Positions 2 through 19,374 of a stretch of 64,000 bases of DNA are shown piece after piece. The position numbers were made by a program, and so were the translations under genes. This stretch comes from a virus, in IMG/VR virus record IMGVR_UViG_3300025881_000008, positions 40,075 to 104,074 of that record; one strand, written 5' to 3'. The notes under the pieces were generated by a model, which saw only the letters and a list, made by a program, of their open reading frames with translations, ran no database searches and was not told the DNA's origin. Within the stretch, counting starts at the first letter, position 1. Each line of letters starts with the position of its first letter.

Positions 2-1054
2 TTTACCATACTCTACTCCAATTTTTTTATTTGTTTCAGCTAGCTTTCTGGCTAATAGTGATTCTGTAATTGCCACTGGTGATGAGGCTTTATAAAGAGG
101 CATTCTAGTAATAGTGGCCAATGTTAATAGAACTTCCATTGATCTTAATTGCTTGTCTATATAATAAACCAAACAGGAGTCAATTACGTTGTAGTAGACA
201 TATTTAGTAAAATCATTTTCATAAAGATCTTGTAATGAACCTGTGTATTTAATTTTGGTAACATCTAAAACTGCACCTGACACAAAGTCTAATGAGTTAG
301 ATTCTTTTACCGCAACTGATCTGTCATATTTGTCATATAATTGCATGTAATCTAAAATACCCATATGAAGAGGTCTACTATCATTTCTGTCAAGTGATCC
401 AGTGATCGCCACATCAGTCAGGTCGATCTGAAGTCTCTTGCAACGATTAACTATATACTGCCAGTCATAGTTGATAAAATTCCATCCAGTCATCATTGGG
501 AACTTAGGTAAAAACTTATGCAAGAATGTATATAACATATTGTACTCATTATCAAATTTATGATATGAGAATTCCCAATCTTGATCATAGTTCTTTAGGT
601 GGGCATTAGTATCTTTCTCAATTTTAGCAATCTGCTCTGATGTTAAATCTTCAAGACCTAATACAATTGCTTTACGCTCAGGCGTGATGATCGAGAAGGT
701 TAAGATACGTGACTTAGCCTCTTCTGGTTTTGGGAAACCATCAACGATTTCTGTTTCAATATCGACGAAATATGTTCGAGGCATATTGAATTCATAAATC
801 TCTTCTTTATCTGCCGCTGGCAGGCTATCCATAAAATAGAGTAGACTGAACTTATTAAATGACTTAGCGATACCTCTTTTTAGTGGGCGATTGTCCCAGT
901 TTCTAAAAGTCTTATCCTTATATTTATCTTTTTCTTCTGTAACTACCCAATTTTGGAATTGGTTTACAGTGTATCTTTTAAAGGAAACTTTACCCTCTTT
1001 GTCATAATAAGAGATGATAAGTTCCTTGTCAGTTTGTTCAATGTCTAATAGCAT
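2..1054 (-). CDS. Family B DNA polymerase (T4 gp43-like), N-terminal and 3'-5' exonuclease part; runs off the left edge of the window
   Basis: Hand translation from the ATG at 1054 (TAATG overlap with the dUTPase stop) gives MLLDIEQTDKE..., with ExoI YFVDIETE, ExoII MTGWNFINYDWQY and ExoIII YNVIDS. The frame is open to the window edge. Confidence 0.9.
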   Translation of the reverse strand, partial: MLLDIEQTDKELIISYYDKEGKVSFKRYTVNQFQNWVVTEEKDKYKDKTFRNWDNRPLKRGIAKSFNKFSLLYFMDSLPAADKEEIYEFNMPRTYFVDIETEIVDGFPKPEEAKSRILTFSIITPERKAIVLGLEDLTSEQIAKIEKDTNAHLKNYDQDWEFSYHKFDNEYNMLYTFLHKFLPKFPMMTGWNFINYDWQYIVNRCKRLQIDLTDVAITGSLDRNDSRPLHMGILDYMQLYDKYDRSVAVKESNSLDFVSGAVLDVTKIKYTGSLQDLYENDFTKYVYYNVIDSCLVYYIDKQLRSMEVLLTLATITRMPLYKASSPVAITESLLARKLAETNKKIGVEYGK

Positions 1055-1521
1055 TAGTAGCCTCTTTTTTGACGGTTCTTATTTTCTTCTGCTTTTGCGA
1101 AATAATAATTATATGCTGTCTTTGCATCGAGGCCAATTGATGCCGCATAATTAATAAAGAAGTGCAATACATCAATCCACTCCATAAAAAGTTCTTTACG
1201 ATCATCTTCTGATAGATCAGAAACTTTTATTGTCTCGTACTTTTTAAAGTCTGCTTTCCAGTATTTCCAAACTGCGTTCCCTGAGCCATCTTTAATGCCT
1301 CCTAATGCGTCTGTCATTTCGTGTAGTTCATCTATCACTGCATGTGTGTTAACATGCCAGAAGTCCATTACCTCGCGAATAGACATGTTCTCAAACTTAA
1401 TGCCATAAGTTTTTTCTTGCATCTCTTTTTGATGAGACATAATGTCTTCTAAGTGTGTCGTTGAATCATTGTAAAAATCTTTTACTTCAAGATCTTTGCA
1501 TTCGTTATCTATATTTGCCAT
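1054..1521 (-). CDS. Dimeric all-alpha dUTPase/dCTPase (T4 gp56/MazG-like superfamily)
   Basis: DELHE, WKYWK and EWIDVLHFF motifs plus a C-terminal K..EN..RQ..GY; adjacent to the DNA polymerase. Confidence 0.85.
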   Translation of the reverse strand: MANIDNECKDLEVKDFYNDSTTHLEDIMSHQKEMQEKTYGIKFENMSIREVMDFWHVNTHAVIDELHEMTDALGGIKDGSGNAVWKYWKADFKKYETIKVSDLSEDDRKELFMEWIDVLHFFINYAASIGLDAKTAYNYYFAKAEENKNRQKRGY

Positions 1522-1540
1522 ATGTAATTTGTTATATTAT

Positions 1541-1566
1541 TAGTATGCTAATTTGTGAGATAGTTT
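1541..1566 (-). promoter_or_regulatory. Putative phage promoter, AAAC-N17-TACTA variant, upstream of dUTPase and DNA polymerase
   Basis: Same 17-nt spacing as four other AAAC-N17-TATAA sites in the window. Confidence 0.45.
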
Positions 1567-1571
1567 CATTG

Positions 1572-2468
1572 TTATTTGTCCATTTCTAAAACTTCTCCCC
1601 ATTCTCTTTGAGAATTAGTTTTTTCTTTAGTTTCTTCTGATTCTGGATAGGGTTGTCCACCTACATTCCAAAACCATGCACCGGGCGTTCCGTGTTTTTT
1701 CATAAATTCCCAAGCTTTAGCATCATAGTTCATTGCAGATGGAAATGGTGGTGCGTATTTAGGATTTACATCAGCGGCAAATGCCTTAGGATGTGACCAA
1801 ACTTTTGCTTTACCTAATTCACCATCTTTAATATTCCTAGATACTGCTACTGCGTTAAATTGAGCATCTGGCCATGCAATCTGCAAAGAGCGCTGTAATA
1901 CGCCTGTTGAAATAGCAGACCAAACCTCTTCGGGGTATCCATGTTTTTCTGCAATATCATACGCTACTTTAACAGCCGCTGCTGTTACTAATTCATGTTT
2001 TAAACCCAATGGTATAAAAGTTGCATTGTTTGCTTCCGCCCATTCTTTTGCTATTTTATTTAAATTTGGCATGGCAGCAATTCTTCTGAACTTAGGTATT
2101 GCACCCCTCTCAATACAAATAGCTTGATGATCTGAAATTACTTTACCTGAAGGCATAAATAAAACCAGTTTCTTGTTATACTTATTTGCCAAATAAGCAA
2201 GAGAAATTCCCGCAAATCCAAATCTGGGCTGTACATAAACTAATGTATCTGTTGGTGCTTTTTGAACTAAAATATCTCCGAATCTACATTTGGATCCAAA
2301 CCCCATCATATCATCTCTGACTACATTGAAACCATCGTGATTCATTATAATAGGATCTTCTAGTGGATCTTTCCAGTCACCAGCTAAATCTAACCATGCT
2401 TGTCTATTTGGCATCATTAGATTTAAGTCTTGGTTCATTTTACTTGTTGTGTGAGTATCATGTGCCAT
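1572..2468 (-). CDS. PLP-dependent enzyme, fold type II (PALP), similar to phage DNA-hypermodification decarboxylases
   Basis: VVRDD...GSKCR (Schiff-base Lys), GFAGISLAYLA, phosphate loop ISTGVL, YDAKAW and FWNVG. Confidence 0.75.
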   Translation of the reverse strand: MAHDTHTTSKMNQDLNLMMPNRQAWLDLAGDWKDPLEDPIIMNHDGFNVVRDDMMGFGSKCRFGDILVQKAPTDTLVYVQPRFGFAGISLAYLANKYNKKLVLFMPSGKVISDHQAICIERGAIPKFRRIAAMPNLNKIAKEWAEANNATFIPLGLKHELVTAAAVKVAYDIAEKHGYPEEVWSAISTGVLQRSLQIAWPDAQFNAVAVSRNIKDGELGKAKVWSHPKAFAADVNPKYAPPFPSAMNYDAKAWEFMKKHGTPGAWFWNVGGQPYPESEETKEKTNSQREWGEVLEMDK

Positions 2469-2469
2469 A

Positions 2470-3141
2470 TTAAAAGTTTGTTTTAGGTCCTAAATATTCT
2501 GGACTAGTCATATATTTGTTATGGTATTCCATTACTTTGTTTCTAGCTTCATCTGCACTATCGACAATTCTAAATAGATCAAAATCCTTTTCACTCATTC
2601 TACCTGAACCCAATAATTGATCCTTCATCCAATCAATTAAACCGCCCCAGTACTTTTTACCGACTAGGACTATTGGATATGTTATATTATGGCCGGTCTG
2701 TGCAAGGGTTATGGCTTCGAACATTTCATCTAATGTACCCACTCCACCTGGAAAAATAACAAAGGCTTGTGAATATTTAAGAAACATTACTTTACGAGTA
2801 AAGAAATATCTACATTCTACTCCGAGGTCAACATATTTGTTCATGCCAGATTCAAATGGTAATTCAATTCCAATTCCAATAGATTTTCCACCTACTTCTT
2901 TAGCGCCGTGGTTTGCGGCTTGCATAATACCAGGTCCACCTCCAGTAATCACTCCAAACCCTTCACAGGCTATTAGCTTACCGAATAGTTTCGCCTCTTC
3001 ATACCATTTAGTTCCTGTCATTGTTCTAGCACTTCCAAAAACGGAAATACAGGGTCCTAATTCACTGAATGTATCAAATCCTTTGGTAAATTCACCCTGG
3101 ATTCGCATGATCTGCCATGCGTCTTCTGCTTTATTTCTCAT
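2470..3141 (-). CDS. LOG family nucleotide phosphoribohydrolase (TIGR00730 Rossmann fold)
   Basis: SVFGSAR, ITGGGPGIM, RKVMF and the signature PGGVGTLDE. Confidence 0.92.
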   Translation of the reverse strand: MRNKAEDAWQIMRIQGEFTKGFDTFSELGPCISVFGSARTMTGTKWYEEAKLFGKLIACEGFGVITGGGPGIMQAANHGAKEVGGKSIGIGIELPFESGMNKYVDLGVECRYFFTRKVMFLKYSQAFVIFPGGVGTLDEMFEAITLAQTGHNITYPIVLVGKKYWGGLIDWMKDQLLGSGRMSEKDFDLFRIVDSADEARNKVMEYHNKYMTSPEYLGPKTNF

Positions 3142-4346
3142 ATATTAGCTACCATTTTTTTATATTCTTCTACTGAAACATTAGCAGATTGTAGTATTTT
3201 ATCATCTGACGGGAATGAAGTCATGCCATTAAATGTTTCAACTAGACCTAAGTCTAACATTGCTTTTTGTCTACCATACGGATGGTCTTTGATAGAAGAC
3301 GAGTTCCATAAAGTATCCATGTTAATATGTGCATAATCAGCACCAGGTCTTAGATAGTTTTCAATCCATCTAATAAAGTCGCATGCAACATCTTCTGCAT
3401 TATATGGCAATGAACCAGTGTCTTCGTATATTTTAGTCATTACTGCATCTAGAAACGGTTCACTTCTTTTACCTTTGTAATCGACCGGATCTGCTAAATA
3501 ACCAATACATTCTACTGCATTTGTGCCGTAATAGAACATTGATTCTCTGTTGATATATTCTGGGTACCAGTCAGCCACGTCTGCAATAACAGCTGCGTAT
3601 TGGAATTTATATTGTCTCAGTCCGTTTGCAACATTCCAATCAAACATCCATTGACCAAGTTGTCTTAAGTCTTTTTTACCACCATCTCTCAAATAACCTG
3701 CCATGTCTCTAGCCAATCTTGGTGCAAATTCACACAAGAAATAATCCCCGCCTCGTTTATAGACATATTCTGGTTCTTTAAATGATGACATACCAACAAA
3801 ACTATCCTCATTTTGAGTTGGTTGTGGAGGTTTAGGAAATGCTGGAAATTGATAACCAACTGAAGTGTAGAATGGCGTTGGGTGGTATTTTACCTTTTCA
3901 CACATTTCTTCAATTGTATCGCAATCGTGTAGATCAAATAGGATTGTATTATGATAACCAGATGGTTTGGTAGCGTAGTTAATTGCTGAGCCACAAACTC
4001 GATGGAGAATAAAAACATACAACCATTCTTCTAGGCCAAAAATATCTTGTCGACTAGTCCAATTTTTTGCAACCTCTTCTCTTTGGGGGTAAATTTTACC
4101 AGCTTGCATATGTTGCCAATACGGATGTTTATCTGTCCATCCATAAAAACAATCATTTATAATTTGACTAAAACCAGCATACTTTCGTTCCACAACATCA
4201 TACAGTTGTATATGTTCCATTAAAGGATCATTCATACCACTTTCATCATGTGGCACCATGCCTAAATTACTAAGCTCTTGTTGTTTTAATGCTAAATTAA
4301 AATACCTAATAAATTCGTCATAATATTGGGTTGTCTTAATTTTCAT
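3138..4346 (-). CDS. Divergent 5-hmdU DNA kinase helical / aGPT-Pplase1-like (HhH-fold) DNA modification protein
   Basis: The motif order DPLMEHIQLYDVVER ... FQYAAVIAD ... YGTNAVECIGYL ... AEDVACDFIRW parallels DPIL..Y.F.NV.R / F.AY...D / GPGA..GL / IE..LCE..KY as recalled for aGPT-Pplase1. ATG at 4346 preferred over TTG at 4355. Confidence 0.55.
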   Translation of the reverse strand: MKIKTTQYYDEFIRYFNLALKQQELSNLGMVPHDESGMNDPLMEHIQLYDVVERKYAGFSQIINDCFYGWTDKHPYWQHMQAGKIYPQREEVAKNWTSRQDIFGLEEWLYVFILHRVCGSAINYATKPSGYHNTILFDLHDCDTIEEMCEKVKYHPTPFYTSVGYQFPAFPKPPQPTQNEDSFVGMSSFKEPEYVYKRGGDYFLCEFAPRLARDMAGYLRDGGKKDLRQLGQWMFDWNVANGLRQYKFQYAAVIADVADWYPEYINRESMFYYGTNAVECIGYLADPVDYKGKRSEPFLDAVMTKIYEDTGSLPYNAEDVACDFIRWIENYLRPGADYAHINMDTLWNSSSIKDHPYGRQKAMLDLGLVETFNGMTSFPSDDKILQSANVSVEEYKKMVANI

Positions 4347-4500
4347 TTTGCTCAATTATTTTCCATGCAAATGGATCTCTATTTCTAGCATATTCATCCA
4401 TTGACCATTCTATATCACCAGTGGTAATTTCTATACTATATGATGCATCCGTAGCATGATATGGTGTTATCTCTATCTTGTATAATTTAGTGTATTTCAT
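4336..4500 (-). CDS. Small hypothetical protein (54 aa)
   Basis: Hand translation MKYTKLYKIEITPYHATDASYSIEITTGDIEWSMDEYARNRDPFAWKIIEQNEN; fills the gap between its neighbours. Confidence 0.7.
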   Translation of the reverse strand: MKYTKLYKIEITPYHATDASYSIEITTGDIEWSMDEYARNRDPFAWKIIEQNEN

Positions 4501-4501
4501 T

Positions 4502-5572
4502 TTAAAATAATGCTGTTTGTATTTGTACTACTTTTAGTTTTTTATTTGGTTCATTATTAACAAGATCCCATCGATAAAATTCTCTAGCGATGTGAACTGA
4601 TTTAGGTTTTTCCATTACATCAAAACTTAACTCACCAATCGGATTTTTATATGCACCTGAGTGTTTCCATGTACTCCATCCATTGCGAGTACACATATCA
4701 ACAATCATTTCATTCATAAGTTTCACAAGATCAGTTCTCTCTTGCCAAGAACCAGCAAATGGGGTGTCTTTATAATAACCAGTCTTTGGTAATTGCCTAG
4801 ACTCATTCTCAATTGGCAATGCTTGTATAACTTCAATGGTTTTAATACCCGATTGTTGAAGTGTTTGTTCATATTGCACCATCATCTTAGTCAGTGCTGA
4901 TACGGGATCATCCTGTCGCATTAAATGATGTCTTATGTCGATATTACCAAGATATATCCTAAGCTCATTAGTCCATGGGTATACATAATCTAATAGACCT
5001 CTCTTTAGAGTTCCAAATAGAGTTAAACCATCATTACGATTGACCATAAAACCTGGCGTATATTGACTAAAACTATGTGAGTCTCCAAAGCAAAGCTTAT
5101 CGGTCTTTTCAATATGGTCTACTCTTTGGATTCCAGAGCAAATCTCTCTAGCCTCTTCAATTCTAGTCTCAAGTGTTTTAAATAGTTCCGAGCCAGTCTT
5201 TAATCTCTTCTCAATTAATTCTGCAATTGAAGGCATATCATGATGTAGTGAATACATCCTAGGACCTTTAGTAAAAAGTCTATTAATCTGGTGGAATAAC
5301 TCGTCGTTAGCCCCGCCGAATATATTGAACGCACCTTTATATTCCATACCATGCTCAAGAAGGACTACATCAAATTCCGACCAGTCCGTAGTCCAATCTG
5401 TAATTACAGTAGCATTCTTATAACCAGCATTTACCAATTGGTTACACAGCATAAAAGCCCAACCAGACTTATGTGAGCTTGGCTTAGGGCTTAATTTACC
5501 AACAAGTGCAGATATTGCTATCTTAATTGACTTGTCAGATTCATAATCTGTAAAGTATTTAAAGTTCTGCAT
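4502..5572 (-). CDS. Putative fusion of a T4 beta-glucosyltransferase-like N-domain and an SGNH-hydrolase-like C-domain
   Basis: N-half KIAI...FNIFGG...MYSLHHDMP resembles BGT KIAI...INFFGG...IYYLFTDIRLP. C-half has CFGDSHS, LGNID and KSVH (SGNH blocks I, III, V). Likely start is MQNFKY at 5572; the ORF is open to 5611. Confidence 0.5.
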   Translation of the reverse strand: MQNFKYFTDYESDKSIKIAISALVGKLSPKPSSHKSGWAFMLCNQLVNAGYKNATVITDWTTDWSEFDVVLLEHGMEYKGAFNIFGGANDELFHQINRLFTKGPRMYSLHHDMPSIAELIEKRLKTGSELFKTLETRIEEAREICSGIQRVDHIEKTDKLCFGDSHSFSQYTPGFMVNRNDGLTLFGTLKRGLLDYVYPWTNELRIYLGNIDIRHHLMRQDDPVSALTKMMVQYEQTLQQSGIKTIEVIQALPIENESRQLPKTGYYKDTPFAGSWQERTDLVKLMNEMIVDMCTRNGWSTWKHSGAYKNPIGELSFDVMEKPKSVHIAREFYRWDLVNNEPNKKLKVVQIQTALF

Positions 5573-5870
5573 CTTCTGTACCCATTGGTTTTTCAGTTTC
5601 ACCATAACCATACTTCTTAATATAGTTATCTAAGCCACCGATATACGCCACTGCGTCAAGTAGATTGTCTTCTTTATAATTATATGAATGTCTACTTAGT
5701 TTTAATGCAACAAGTGCTGCGTACATGTCCGCTCCGGTGAATTCTTTACCAGTCATTCCGCCACAAATCATTGCAGCTCGGCGCATGCCTTCTTCAAAAG
5801 GACCATACATGCGTTCTTTCTCTTCTGAACGATGATTAATAATTTTGTCTGCTTCGTTTAAAATATTCAT
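5559..5870 (-). CDS. DUF6378-like all-helical protein (nucleotide-modification associated)
   Basis: IL.EA..II...R...YG.F ... LKLSR.....K.DNLLD..AY pattern. Confidence 0.7.
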   Translation of the reverse strand: MNILNEADKIINHRSEEKERMYGPFEEGMRRAAMICGGMTGKEFTGADMYAALVALKLSRHSYNYKEDNLLDAVAYIGGLDNYIKKYGYGETEKPMGTEDAEL

Positions 5871-5887
5871 GTGTAATTGGTTTATTG

Positions 5888-5913
5888 TTATATGGTATAT
5901 TTTTGATTTGTTT
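5888..5913 (-). promoter_or_regulatory. Putative phage promoter AAAC-N17-TATAA driving the modification operon
   Basis: Minus strand reads TAAAC AAATCAAAAATATACCA TATAAC, ending 17 nt upstream of the ATG at 5870. Confidence 0.6.
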
Positions 5914-5936: not shown

Positions 5937-6098
5937 TTAATCATTGTCTTTATTAGTGTTTATGTCTTTTTTCCAAGACTTGTCCTTTCTATTATATTTA
6001 GATTCGTCGCCATGGTCCTTTTGAATCATTTTACGACGTATCATGGCAGCGAGATGCCTCTCGTTATATCCATCAATATCTTTTTTCTTCTTTGCCAT
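5937..6098 (-). CDS. Small basic protein (53 aa), weakly ArfA-like
   Basis: Hand translation MAKKKKDIDGYNERHLAAMIRRKMIQKDHGDESKYNRKDKSWKKDINTNKDND. Confidence 0.65.
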   Translation of the reverse strand: MAKKKKDIDGYNERHLAAMIRRKMIQKDHGDESKYNRKDKSWKKDINTNKDND

Positions 6099-6133: not shown

Positions 6134-6164
6134 AAAAAAAGGCCAAACAAAAAAATGTTTGGCC
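6134..6164 (-). terminator. Intrinsic terminator, possibly overlapping a host-type (Bacteroidetes TAnnTTTG-like) promoter
   Basis: Perfect 9-bp stem GGCCAAACA/TGTTTGGCC followed on the minus strand by T7, then TATATTTAC at 6123-6131. Confidence 0.7.
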
Positions 6165-19281: not shown

Positions 19282-19374
19282 ATTATATATCTGAATTGCT
19301 TTTTGTTTCATCTAGAGCTTATTTTTATTTTTTTTTAAATAAATTGAAACAATTCTGAGCAACTAGCATATAAT
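19282..19374. promoter_or_regulatory. Divergent promoter pair around an AT-rich spacer
   Basis: Minus strand TGAAAC-N17-TATAAT (19282-19310); plus strand TGAAAC-N18-TATAAT (19345-19374). Confidence 0.55.

What the first reader, a model, noticed from the sequence alone, without database searches (positions are those of the whole stretch)
1054..5913. Candidate new DNA base-hypermodification operon coupled to the DNA polymerase
Seen: one promoter-like motif precedes a tightly overlapped series (DUF6378, BGT-N/SGNH fusion, 54-aa ORF, HhH 5-hmdU-kinase-like protein, LOG, fold-II PLP enzyme), directly followed by dUTPase/dCTPase and polB. Known: thymidine hypermodification in phages ViI, M6 and PhiW-14 uses a 5-hmdU DNA kinase (aGPT-Pplase1) and an amino acid/amine:DNA transferase (aGPT-Pplase2); ViI and M6 add a PLP decarboxylase. 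Inference: the kinase-like and PLP components are present, but the canonical transferase is not recognisable. An SGNH fusion and LOG sit in its place, which suggests different chemistry (e.g. acylation or aminoacylation of a 5-hydroxymethylpyrimidine followed by PLP tailoring). No dNMP hydroxymethylase is visible in this window.
Basis: partly seen in the sequence, partly recalled or inferred. Interest (0 to 1): 0.9.

Follow-up and report, generated by a model that had tools for sequence, protein, structure and literature searches.

The report
Kinase-less phage cytosine hypermodification operon
Just upstream of its DNA polymerase gene, an uncultured marine jumbo phage carries distant relatives of the enzymes that attach and trim amino acids on thymine in other phages' DNA. 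Its relatives link the set to hydroxymethylcytosine, and an esterase-fold protein sits where the usual DNA kinase would be, so its DNA probably carries a decorated cytosine that has not been described.

Summary
The gene series is real and tightly packed on the minus strand. It lies behind a terminator and a promoter-like box that is conserved in relatives.

This looks like a DNA base-hypermodification module, but three points change:
- **The 402/405-aa protein is the transferase-like part, not a kinase.** Its model (pLDDT 91.8) matches the solved 5-PmdU glycinyltransferase PUGT best (Z 9.8). Its family keeps an invariant Glu-x3-Cys in the position of PUGT's catalytic Glu243/Cys247. What is missing is the P-loop 5-hmdU kinase, which is also absent from a complete 256-kb relative.
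- **LOG is an accessory gene.** It occurs in 14 of 80 related loci. In 51 of 80 loci, a second transferase-like paralogue sits in that position.
- **The target is probably cytosine.** Relatives carry a gp42-like enzyme with Asp at the T4 D179 position, and the 155-aa gene resembles the gp56 dCTPase.

The conserved core is the SGNH-fold protein, the transferase-like protein and a PLP enzyme homologous to M6 gp52. The first two are fused in some relatives.

All of this is inferred from sequence and predicted structure; no chemistry has been shown. I found no paper describing this module. The scan has already reported it on other DNA (at least 16 genomes).

The parts
6141..6164 (-). Intrinsic terminator (9-bp GC-rich stem plus T-run) ending the upstream transcription unit
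   Evidence: sequence read
5888..5913 (-). Promoter-like box AAACAAA-N14-TATAA, 18 nt before the DUF6378 start codon
   Evidence: Conserved upstream of DUF6378 in divergent relatives. A slightly relaxed form recurs at 4 intergenic sites 18-35 nt before gene starts in this record. The count in the window alone is not above chance.
5559..5870 (-). DUF6378 protein (103 aa); function unknown; first gene of the unit in about 70 of 80 relatives
   Evidence: Pfam PF19905 E 1.3e-9; synteny; no PDB sequence match
4502..5611 (-). Two-domain protein (369 aa; homologues 352-376 aa). The N-terminal Rossmann-like domain is possibly like the T4 beta-glucosyltransferase N-half. The C-terminal SGNH/GDSL domain has intact Ser178 (GDS), Asn223 (GNID) and His340.
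   Evidence: Model pLDDT 89.5; Foldseek SGNH E 1.6e-4; VIA Z 14 over residues 167-356; invariant motifs and fusions to the next domain; phrog_13881 and phrog_17781
4336..4500 (-). 54-aa ORF, conserved at 44-89% identity in most but not all relatives; no family match
3138..4355 (-). Amino acid:DNA transferase-like HhH protein (402 aa from the ATG at 4346) with invariant Glu321-x3-Cys325
   Evidence: Model pLDDT 91.8; best VIA match PUGT 8z2m, Z 9.8; invariant residues; hhalign places the motif on ADDT E243/C247; fused behind the SGNH protein in P0275, P0284, P0315, P0317, P0347, P0348 and P0355
2470..3141 (-). LOG-family nucleotide phosphoribohydrolase (223 aa; PGGxGTxxE intact); accessory, present in 14 of 80 related loci
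   Evidence: PF03641 E 6.7e-32; sequence; synteny
1572..2468 (-). Fold-type-II PLP enzyme (298 aa) with invariant Lys60 in S-K-x-R; homologue of the M6 gp52 DNA-base decarboxylase
   Evidence: phrog_7093 E 8e-38, and M6 gp52 is in the same PHROG at 2e-159; hhalign to gp52 E 2.7e-5 over 215 columns; hhalign to Erythrobacter phage R6L gp1 residues 373-631 E 2e-35; R6L gp1 also carries a DNA methylase domain
1054..1521 (-). All-alpha NTP pyrophosphatase (155 aa), gp56-like dCTPase/dUTPase
   Evidence: phrog_173 and phrog_18650, the same PHROGs as Aeromonas phage 31 gp56; 35% identity to gp56 by tblastn
2..1054 (-). N-terminal gene of a split family-B DNA polymerase (467 aa in all; it runs off the window start)
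   Evidence: PF03104; PF00136 positions 22-137 lie here and positions 152-413 lie in a separate 402-aa gene 3.7 kb downstream

Best explanation
This is a post-replicative DNA hypermodification module that acts on a 5-hydroxymethylpyrimidine, most likely 5-hydroxymethylcytosine.

**Proposed route:**
1. The gp56-like pyrophosphatase lowers the dCTP pool. A gp42-like dCMP hydroxymethylase, seen only in relatives, supplies hm-dCMP, so the split polB incorporates 5-hmC.
2. The two-domain SGNH protein binds the modified DNA. Through its Ser-His centre it puts an acyl (ester) leaving group on the 5-CH2OH, doing the job that the P-loop 5-hmdU kinase does in M6, ViI and PaMx11.
3. The transferase-like HhH protein flips the base out. 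Cys325 attacks C6, the leaving group departs with help from Glu321, and an amino-acid nucleophile adds to the exocyclic methylene.
4. The PLP enzyme, a relative of M6 gp52, decarboxylates or otherwise trims the appended amino acid. The product is a cationic side chain that shields the DNA from host nucleases.

**Shown here:** folds, motifs, fusions, synteny and homologies.

**Inferred:** the substrate base, every chemical step, and the role of the SGNH domain.

LOG, the 54-aa ORF and DUF6378 have no assigned step. LOG is an optional add-on.
For: **Transferase-like protein.** Its best structural match among 48,161 chains is PUGT/PaMx11 gp46 (Z 9.8, rmsd 4.0 over 208 residues). Glu321 and Cys325 are invariant in 42 diverse homologues. 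PUGT uses Glu243 and Cys247 (PMC11472151), and M6 gp51 loses activity when either is mutated (PMC8989533). The single top hhalign segment between the two family profiles puts E-D-V-A-C on E-T-V-L-C. The structural alignment ends 11 residues after the Cys in both proteins.

**Link to the SGNH protein.** The two are adjacent in all 80 viral loci and fused in 7 cluster representatives. The catalytic SGNH blocks are invariant.

**PLP enzyme.** It falls in the same PHROG as M6 gp52. It aligns to gp52 along its full length, including the PLP lysine. In Erythrobacter phage R6L this domain is fused to a DNA N6/N4 methylase.

**No kinase.** PF18748, PF18724 and PF18723 are not found in this record, in the complete 256-kb relative G001, or in G003.

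**Cytosine route.** G001, G003 and G010 each carry a divergent thymidylate-synthase-family gene that hits T4-type gp42 best. Each has Asp where T4 gp42 has D179 and thymidylate synthases have Asn. G001 and G003 also keep a canonical thymidylate synthase. The 155-aa gene is gp56-like.

**SGNH homologues elsewhere.** They occur in T4-like Aeromonas phages 31, 44RR2.8t and 25. In phage 31 I confirmed genes 42 and 56, and the part of its genome I read (two regions) shows no glucosyltransferase gene.
Against: - No Pfam, PDB-sequence or significant profile-profile match ties the 405-aa protein to ADDT or HMUDK_hel. The link rests on a predicted structure with a middling Z for a helical protein, plus one short motif.
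- No hydroxymethylase is present in this 104-kb record, which CheckV rates 34% complete. The cytosine assignment is borrowed from relatives that are 74-77% identical in the transferase-like protein.
- Asp at that position would also fit a dCMP methylase.
- No acyl donor or acyl-CoA-binding part is evident. SGNH proteins are more often hydrolases than transferases.
- Aeromonas phage 25 has the SGNH protein without a detectable transferase-like neighbour. So the SGNH step may be an end in itself.
- No chemistry has been measured.
Confidence: 0.55

Rival explanations
1. Same pathway, but the roles are divided differently. The transferase-like protein works directly on 5-hmC with water as the leaving group, so no activation is needed. 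The SGNH protein is a tailoring enzyme: it acylates or de-esterifies the appended group, or it simply O-acylates 5-hmC as a final product.
For: - Lee et al. describe the key step as dehydration of the hydroxymethyl group, only 'possibly assisted' by phosphate (PMC8989533).
- PaMx11 uses an acetyltransferase as a late tailoring step.
- Aeromonas phage 25 carries the SGNH protein without a detectable transferase-like partner.
Against: - All characterised AADTs need the phosphorylated substrate.
- The fusion places the SGNH domain ahead of the HhH domain and the adjacency is strict. This fits two consecutive steps on one flipped base.
Confidence: 0.2
2. One reading: a thymidine (5-hmdU) hypermodification operon in which the 402-aa protein is the kinase-associated aGPT-Pplase1 part, and SGNH and LOG replace the transferase.
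For: - The closest characterised systems all act on 5-hmdU.
- There are sub-threshold HMUDK_hel hits in the C-half of Aeromonas phage 31 ORF233c (E 0.0036 and 4e-4) and in one of 42 family members (E 0.01).
Against: - Relatives keep a canonical thymidylate synthase, and their second enzyme of that family has the cytosine-type Asp.
- The pyrophosphatase is gp56-like.
- There is no P-loop kinase for an aGPT-Pplase1 to partner with.
- The Glu-x3-Cys motif is the transferase signature.
- LOG is present in only 14 of 80 loci.
Confidence: 0.08
3. The enzymes act on free nucleotides before replication, not on DNA. They would form a nucleotide-pool remodelling operon made of pyrophosphatases, a LOG nucleosidase and PLP/esterase steps on a dNMP derivative.
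For: - The genes lie among nucleotide-metabolism genes: the gp56-like gene, LOG here, and nrdB and nrdA just downstream.
- They sit in one apparent transcription unit with the polymerase.
Against: - The HhH fold and its closest solved relative bind duplex DNA and flip a base.
- The PLP domain is fused to a DNA methyltransferase in phage R6L.
- M6 gp52 acts on DNA.
- LOG is dispensable in most relatives.
Confidence: 0.08
4. There is no joint pathway. Unrelated early genes are packed together: an esterase aimed at host envelope or metabolites, an HhH repair or anti-restriction protein, and an amino-acid-metabolism PLP enzyme.
For: - No component reaches a curated family threshold for a DNA-modifying family.
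- Phage early regions are mosaics, and this one takes up varied inserts: homing endonuclease, thioredoxin, CitG-like, GT2 plus Glf.
Against: - The trio stays together through rearrangements of gene order and down to 34-54% identity (L071, L075-L081).
- Two of its members are fused in several lineages.
- The third is homologous to a proven DNA-base-tailoring enzyme.
Confidence: 0.07

Closest known systems
Thymidine hypermodification pathways of phages M6, ViI, PaMx11, PhiW-14 and SH-Ab 15599: dUMP hydroxymethylase, P-loop 5-HMUDK, amino acid:DNA transferase (aGPT-Pplase2 / ADDT / PUGT) and PLP decarboxylase (PMC5889632, PMC8989533, PMC11472151, PMC13458397)
   Same: - HhH glycosylase-like transferase fold with the catalytic Glu-x3-Cys.
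- A PLP enzyme of the M6 gp52 family (phrog_7093).
- Often a paralogous pair of transferase-like genes (51 of 80 relatives, though not this window).
- Placement among replication and nucleotide genes, next to a dNTP pyrophosphatase.
   Different: - No P-loop DNA kinase; an N-domain plus SGNH protein is linked or fused instead.
- Relatives have a dCMP-type rather than a dUMP-type hydroxymethylase.
- No rSAM, FAD or GNAT tailoring genes.
- The transferase-like protein is about 110 residues longer and is invisible to the Pfam ADDT and HMUDK_hel models.
T-even phage 5-hmC pathway: gp56 dCTPase, gp42 dCMP hydroxymethylase, alpha/beta-glucosyltransferases beside gene 43
   Same: - A gp56-like pyrophosphatase.
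- A gp42-like enzyme with the D179-type Asp in relatives.
- The modification genes sit next to the polymerase gene and uvsX, as beta-gt and gene 42 do in T4.
- The N-domain possibly resembles the DNA-binding half of beta-glucosyltransferase.
   Different: - There is no sugar-nucleotide-binding C-domain; an SGNH domain takes its place.
- A transferase-like protein and a PLP enzyme are added.
- The likeness to beta-glucosyltransferase is not statistically supported here.
Aeromonas phage 31 / 44RR2.8t ORF233c (795 aa, phrog_17781) and Aeromonas phage 25 ORF225c, Tenacibaculum phage PTm1 homologue (phrog_13881)
   Same: The whole N-domain plus SGNH architecture is shared: 28-35% identity and Foldseek BFVD E 1e-20 to 3e-26 with TM 0.73-0.80. 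Phage 31 carries genes 42 and 56, and no glucosyltransferase gene lies in the two regions of its genome that I read.
   Different: The C-half of the Aeromonas fusion gives only a sub-threshold HMUDK_hel hit and shows no detectable similarity to the 405-aa family. A Na+/solute symporter is its neighbour. No PLP partner was seen there.

Membership tests
Amino acid:DNA transferase (Pfam ADDT PF18724, former aGPT-Pplase clade 2) | Match to the family profile above the curated cut-off | tested here: not met
   No hit even at E <= 10. None in 42 family members at E <= 1. None in the genome. Profile-profile probability is under 1%.
Amino acid:DNA transferase (Pfam ADDT PF18724, former aGPT-Pplase clade 2) | Two-lobed helical HhH, DNA-glycosylase-like fold of PUGT | tested here: met
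   8z2m_A is the top match of 48,161 chains: Z 9.8, rmsd 4.0, 208 residues aligned. HhH glycosylases follow below it. Z is middling for a helical protein.
Amino acid:DNA transferase (Pfam ADDT PF18724, former aGPT-Pplase clade 2) | Essential Cys with a Glu four residues upstream (PUGT E243/C247; M6 gp51 E243/C247) | tested here: met
   E321 and C325 are invariant. hhalign aligns them to E243/C247 of the ADDT alignment A4. The offset to the end of the structural alignment is the same in both proteins. The paralogue in relatives keeps the motif too.
Amino acid:DNA transferase (Pfam ADDT PF18724, former aGPT-Pplase clade 2) | Works with a P-loop 5-hmdU DNA kinase (PF18748) on 5-PmdU | tested here: not met
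   PF18748 is absent from G000, the complete relative G001, G003 and Aeromonas phage 31.
5-hmdU DNA kinase helical domain (Pfam HMUDK_hel PF18723, former aGPT-Pplase clade 1) | Match to the family profile | tested here: not met
   No hit for the window protein. One of 42 relatives hits at E 0.01. hhalign to M6 gp55 gives E 0.015, probability 3%, over the HhH region only.
SGNH/GDSL hydrolase superfamily | Flavodoxin-like SGNH fold | tested here: met
   Foldseek finds 17 PDB matches at E <= 1e-3, mostly SGNH/GDSL esterases with probability 1.00. VIA Z is 14.1-13.3 over residues 167-356.
SGNH/GDSL hydrolase superfamily | Block I GDS Ser, block III GxND Asn, block V His | tested here: met
   G176-D177-S178, G222-N223-I224-D225 and H340 are invariant in 26 sequences. 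The acid may be E334 rather than the usual Asp at His-3.
T4 beta-glucosyltransferase N-terminal (DNA-binding) domain | Sequence or fold match of residues about 20-165 to the beta-glucosyltransferase N-half | tested here: inconclusive
   Pfam T4-Gluco-transf hits at E 0.078 in the fused relative P0348 only. hhalign against T4 beta-glucosyltransferase gives E 0.016, probability 3%, on the D..YD/NxFGG segment. The domain was not folded alone, and the fold-search rows are filled by the SGNH domain. The Atlas gave no usable hit.
M6 gp52-type PLP-dependent DNA-base decarboxylase (phrog_7093; fold type II PLP) | Homology to M6 gp52 and a conserved PLP lysine | tested here: met
   phrog_7093 at E 8e-38, against 2e-159 for gp52. 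hhalign E 2.7e-5 over 215 columns, with S-K-x-R aligned. K60 is invariant in 49 sequences. Pfam PALP scores only 22.9 bits, below the cut-off of 35.
LOG / TIGR00730 nucleotide phosphoribohydrolase | PF03641 match and the PGGxGTxxE motif | tested here: met
   E 6.7e-32. The motif is read in the translation.
T4 gp56-type dCTPase/dUTPase (all-alpha NTP pyrophosphatase) | Homology to gp56 | tested here: met
   phrog_173 at 1.9e-13 and phrog_18650 at 1e-8; these are the same two PHROGs as Aeromonas phage 31 gp56. Identity to that gp56 is 35%. Substrate specificity was not tested.
T4 gp42-type dCMP hydroxymethylase (needed upstream of the module) | Present in the genome, with Asp at the T4 D179 position | tested here: inconclusive
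   It is absent from this 104-kb fragment. It is present with Asp in relatives G001 (complete), G003 and G010. In G001 it lies about 87 kb from the module, farther than this record reaches in either direction.

The most novel reading that the evidence does not exclude
A widespread clade of marine jumbo phages makes a DNA base that has not been described: an amino-acid-derived 5-substituted cytosine, for example an aminoethoxymethyl-type side chain. They make it by a route that activates 5-hmC in DNA as an ester with an SGNH acyl-enzyme instead of phosphorylating it. This would be the first enzymatic O-acylation of a DNA base, and the first amino acid:DNA transferase chemistry on cytosine.
Probability: 0.3. 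Interest if true: 0.9.

Novelty: new variant of a known kind. Interest (0 to 1): 0.8.

Why it matters
Amino acid:DNA transferase chemistry is known only for thymine, and there it always follows a dedicated DNA kinase. A kinase-less, cytosine-directed version would do three things:
- add a new class of natural DNA bases;
- reveal a new way of activating a DNA base;
- supply new enzymes for site-selective labelling of 5-hmC.

It would also explain what T4-like and jumbo phages that carry genes 42 and 56 but no glucosyltransferases do with their hmC. That bears on how they escape restriction, CRISPR and type IV systems.

The family is abundant. The transferase-like protein has 946 homologous 90%-identity clusters, and at least 585 viral contig stretches encode it. 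The prediction can be tested directly with cultured Aeromonas phages or by reconstitution on hmC DNA.

Tried and rejected
**Searches that found nothing**
- Megablast of 8 kb, and tblastn of the 405-aa protein, against 50,697 phage records.
- phmmer or a profile of the 405-aa, 369-aa, DUF6378 and 155-aa proteins against PDB sequences.
- Foldseek of the 405-aa model against the PDB gave only E of about 1, to OGG1/AGOG. The exhaustive VIA search was needed to find PUGT.

**Profile comparisons that were not significant**
- Family A1 against M6 gp51 alone, M6 gp55 alone, the ADDT alignment A4, Aeromonas phage 31 ORF233c and the two neighbours in Aeromonas phage 25. Only the position of the best segment is informative.
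- DUF6378 against the 155-aa pyrophosphatase. I therefore do not call DUF6378 a pyrophosphatase.

**N-domain of the 369-aa protein**
- The ESM Atlas returned nothing usable.

**Idea dropped**
- I first took the 326-aa ORF after polB-N for the second half of the polymerase. It is nrdB.

**Literature**
- I found no paper on SGNH together with hypermodification, on cytosine hypermodification, on AADT together with cytosine, on 44RR2.8t DNA modification, or on this module in the jumbo-phage survey.
- Iyer et al. 2013 is not held in the library.

Full report
**Where the window lies.** The window is bases 40075-104074 of a 104,074-bp IMG/VR virus record that CheckV rates 34% complete. GC content is about 33% and nearly all genes are on the minus strand. 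The polymerase resembles those of uncultured huge phages, Chryseobacterium phages MA9V and Sphingomonas phage PAU. One relative with terminal repeats is 256 kb long (G001). The source is therefore a marine jumbo phage with T4-like replication genes.

In the direction of transcription the genes are:
- DUF6378 (5559-5870)
- a 369-aa protein (4502-5611)
- a 54-aa ORF (4336-4500)
- a 405-aa ORF, 402 aa from its ATG (3138-4355)
- LOG (2470-3141)
- a 298-aa PLP-type protein (1572-2468)
- a 155-aa all-alpha NTP pyrophosphatase (1054-1521)
- the start of polB (2-1054)

They overlap or sit 1-50 nt apart. A strong terminator at 6141-6164 closes the upstream unit. At 5888-5913, 18 nt before the first start codon, lies the box AAACAAA-N14-TATAA. 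The same box stands before DUF6378 in divergent relatives. A slightly relaxed form (A or T at the seventh base) stands 18-35 nt before three other genes in this record. The count in the window alone is not above chance. The next such box downstream is behind the second polymerase gene, so the module and the polymerase may share one transcript.

**The 402/405-aa protein.** No Pfam, PHROG or PDB-sequence match was found. It is nevertheless very common and well conserved, with 946 homologous clusters and the top 120 at 67% identity or more. A search of 1.8 billion representatives found 140 relatives.
- An AlphaFold model built on 42 diverse homologues is confident (pLDDT 91.8, pTM 0.91).
- Foldseek gave only weak HhH-glycosylase hits. 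The exhaustive VIA search ranked the 5-PmdU glycinyltransferase PUGT of phage PaMx11 first (8z2m, Z 9.8, rmsd 4.0, 208 residues). Queuine-salvage DUF2419 and AGOG/AlkA/EndoIII glycosylases came next.
- PUGT is a clade-2 aGPT-Pplase, now Pfam ADDT. Its Cys247 attacks C6 of the base, and Glu243 binds the metal (PMC11472151). Mutating the equivalent Cys or Glu kills M6 gp51 and ViI gp247 (PMC8989533).
- In the 405-aa family, E321 and C325 are invariant.
- I built an ADDT alignment in which E243, T244 and C247 are invariant. The single best hhalign segment between the two profiles, though not significant on its own, lays E-D-V-A-C on E-T-V-L-C. The structural alignment ends 11 residues after the Cys in both proteins.

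I read this protein as a far-diverged amino acid:DNA transferase-like enzyme. It fails the profile test for both ADDT and HMUDK_hel (the former aGPT-Pplase1), so I do not file it in either Pfam family.

**The 369-aa protein.** The model has pLDDT 89.5. Residues 167-356 are an SGNH/GDSL domain (Foldseek E 1.6e-4, probability 1.0; VIA Z 14). Its GDS serine, GNID asparagine and block-V histidine are invariant, so it should be catalytically active. Matches include esterases and the peptidoglycan O-acetyltransferases OatA and PatB. Residues 20-165 form a Rossmann-like domain. Its resemblance to the DNA-binding half of T4 beta-glucosyltransferase stays suggestive only.

**The SGNH protein and the transferase-like protein are fused in relatives.** In seven cluster representatives of 639-790 aa, this whole protein is fused in front of the 405-aa domain. 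Homologues of the 369-aa protein also occur in T4-like Aeromonas phages, Tenacibaculum phage PTm1 and Stenotrophomonas phages. In Aeromonas phage 31 it forms the N-half of the 795-aa ORF233c. The C-half of that ORF gives a sub-threshold HMUDK_hel hit, and its neighbour is a Na+/solute symporter.

**The PLP enzyme.** Pfam PALP is below its cut-off, but phrog_7093 matches at 8e-38. That PHROG holds M6 gp52 (2e-159), the decarboxylase shown to act on glycinyl-thymine in DNA. hhalign covers both proteins almost end to end (E 2.7e-5). The S-K-x-R lysine is aligned, and a PFP...YD.KAW...FWN.G tail is shared. K60 is invariant in 49 sequences. In Erythrobacter phage R6L this domain (E 2e-35) is fused behind a DNA N6/N4 methylase domain, which points to DNA as the substrate.

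**What is conserved.** I examined 80 viral-contig loci by tblastn.
- The SGNH protein and the transferase-like protein are adjacent, or separated only by small inserts, in all 80.
- The PLP gene follows in 66 of them. The other 14 loci end within 1.4 kb of the transferase gene.
- The trio persists where the order is rearranged and identity falls to 34-54% (L071, L075-L081).
- DUF6378 precedes it in about 70 loci. The pyrophosphatase and polB follow in most.
- LOG is present in only 14.
- In 51 loci a 325-388-aa gene sits between the transferase-like and PLP genes. It is a distant paralogue of the 405-aa family (hhalign E 3.4e-5, probability 72%) and keeps the E-x3-C motif. This record has no copy of it.
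- Other inserts in relatives are a thioredoxin, a CitG-like protein, a homing endonuclease and, in G001, a GT2 glycosyltransferase with a UDP-galactopyranose mutase.

**Which base.** The record has no thymidylate-synthase-family gene.
- The complete relative G001 and the fragment G003 each have a canonical thymidylate synthase plus a divergent second copy. G010 has the divergent copy.
- The divergent copy hits T4-type gp42 in 923 phage records.
- It has Asp where T4 gp42 has D179. The canonical synthase and the M6 dUMP hydroxymethylase have Asn there. The catalytic Cys is kept.
- In G001 this gene lies about 87 kb from the module, beyond the reach of this fragment.
- The 155-aa pyrophosphatase falls in the same PHROGs as Aeromonas phage 31 gp56 and is 35% identical to it.
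- The P-loop 5-hmdU kinase, ADDT and HMUDK_hel profiles find nothing in this record, G001 or G003.

The most economical reading is a 5-hmC genome that is decorated after replication without a kinase. An Asp at that site would also fit a dCMP methylase, so the assignment remains an inference.

**Mechanism I commit to.**
1. The SGNH protein esterifies the 5-CH2OH of the flipped base, giving it a leaving group.
2. Cys325 of the transferase-like protein adds to C6 and the ester leaves. An amino-acid nucleophile then adds to the exocyclic methylene.
3. The PLP enzyme decarboxylates the adduct.

With no rSAM isomerase present, the closest analogy is the ViI serine route (O-linked serine, then aminoethoxymethyl). 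I put about 0.55 on [quoted passage not shown] and about 0.3 on this exact order of steps. The main alternative is that the SGNH domain is a tailoring or terminal acylating enzyme.

**Comparison with what is known.** The module works like the thymidine hypermodification clusters but differs in the base, in the activating enzyme and in being invisible to the family profiles. Searches of the held library found nothing describing it.

**Earlier findings of this scan.** The scan's own notes show the same module already reported on other DNA, in at least 16 genomes, with follow-up readings that agree with mine. I reached my reading before opening those notes, and they are not independent evidence. 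Features specific to this window are the lack of the second transferase-like paralogue and the presence of LOG in its place.

Noticed in passing
window 2-1054 and L096:1834-8129 (genome 34833-41128): The family-B DNA polymerase is split into two genes 3.7 kb apart. polB-N is 467 aa (exonuclease domain plus Pfam DNA_pol_B positions 22-137). polB-C is 402 aa (positions 152-413). Between the halves lie nrdB (326 aa), nrdA (569 aa) and an unassigned 247-aa ORF. A RecA/UvsX-like gene follows behind the next promoter box.
   Followed up: partly
window 5888-5913 and 19283-19308; genome 34467-34492 and 25528-25553: A recurrent box AAACAA[AT]-N13-14-TATAA sits 18-35 nt before gene starts on the coding strand. 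It is conserved upstream of DUF6378 in relatives. It may be a phage-specific (middle-type) promoter class.
   Followed up: partly
L064:13143-15423 and L064:9666-10001 (complete 256-kb relative G001); L038:9191-9988: Relatives insert other genes into the module. G001 has a GT2 glycosyltransferase plus a UDP-galactopyranose mutase between the PLP gene and the pyrophosphatase, and a thioredoxin between the SGNH and transferase-like genes. The relative behind L038 has a CitG-like triphosphoribosyl-dephospho-CoA synthase. This hints that some relatives add a furanose sugar or use a CoA-derived cofactor.
   Followed up: no
L094:4885-7314 (Erythrobacter phage vB_EliS_R6L gp1): An 810+-aa protein fuses a DNA N6/N4 methylase domain to a domain 36% identical to the window's PLP enzyme. 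About 180 further residues are unassigned. Microcystis phage Mae-JY30 has a similar gene annotated as a methylase.
   Followed up: partly
L001:7438-8961 (Aeromonas phage 31 ORF234c): A phage-encoded Na+/solute symporter (SSF family, E 7e-53) lies directly upstream of the SGNH-HhH fusion gene ORF233c. It may import the small molecule used for DNA modification.
   Followed up: no
window 5937-6098: A 53-aa, very lysine-rich ORF lies between the terminator and the conserved promoter box. It may be a small basic protein or may not be a gene.
   Followed up: no
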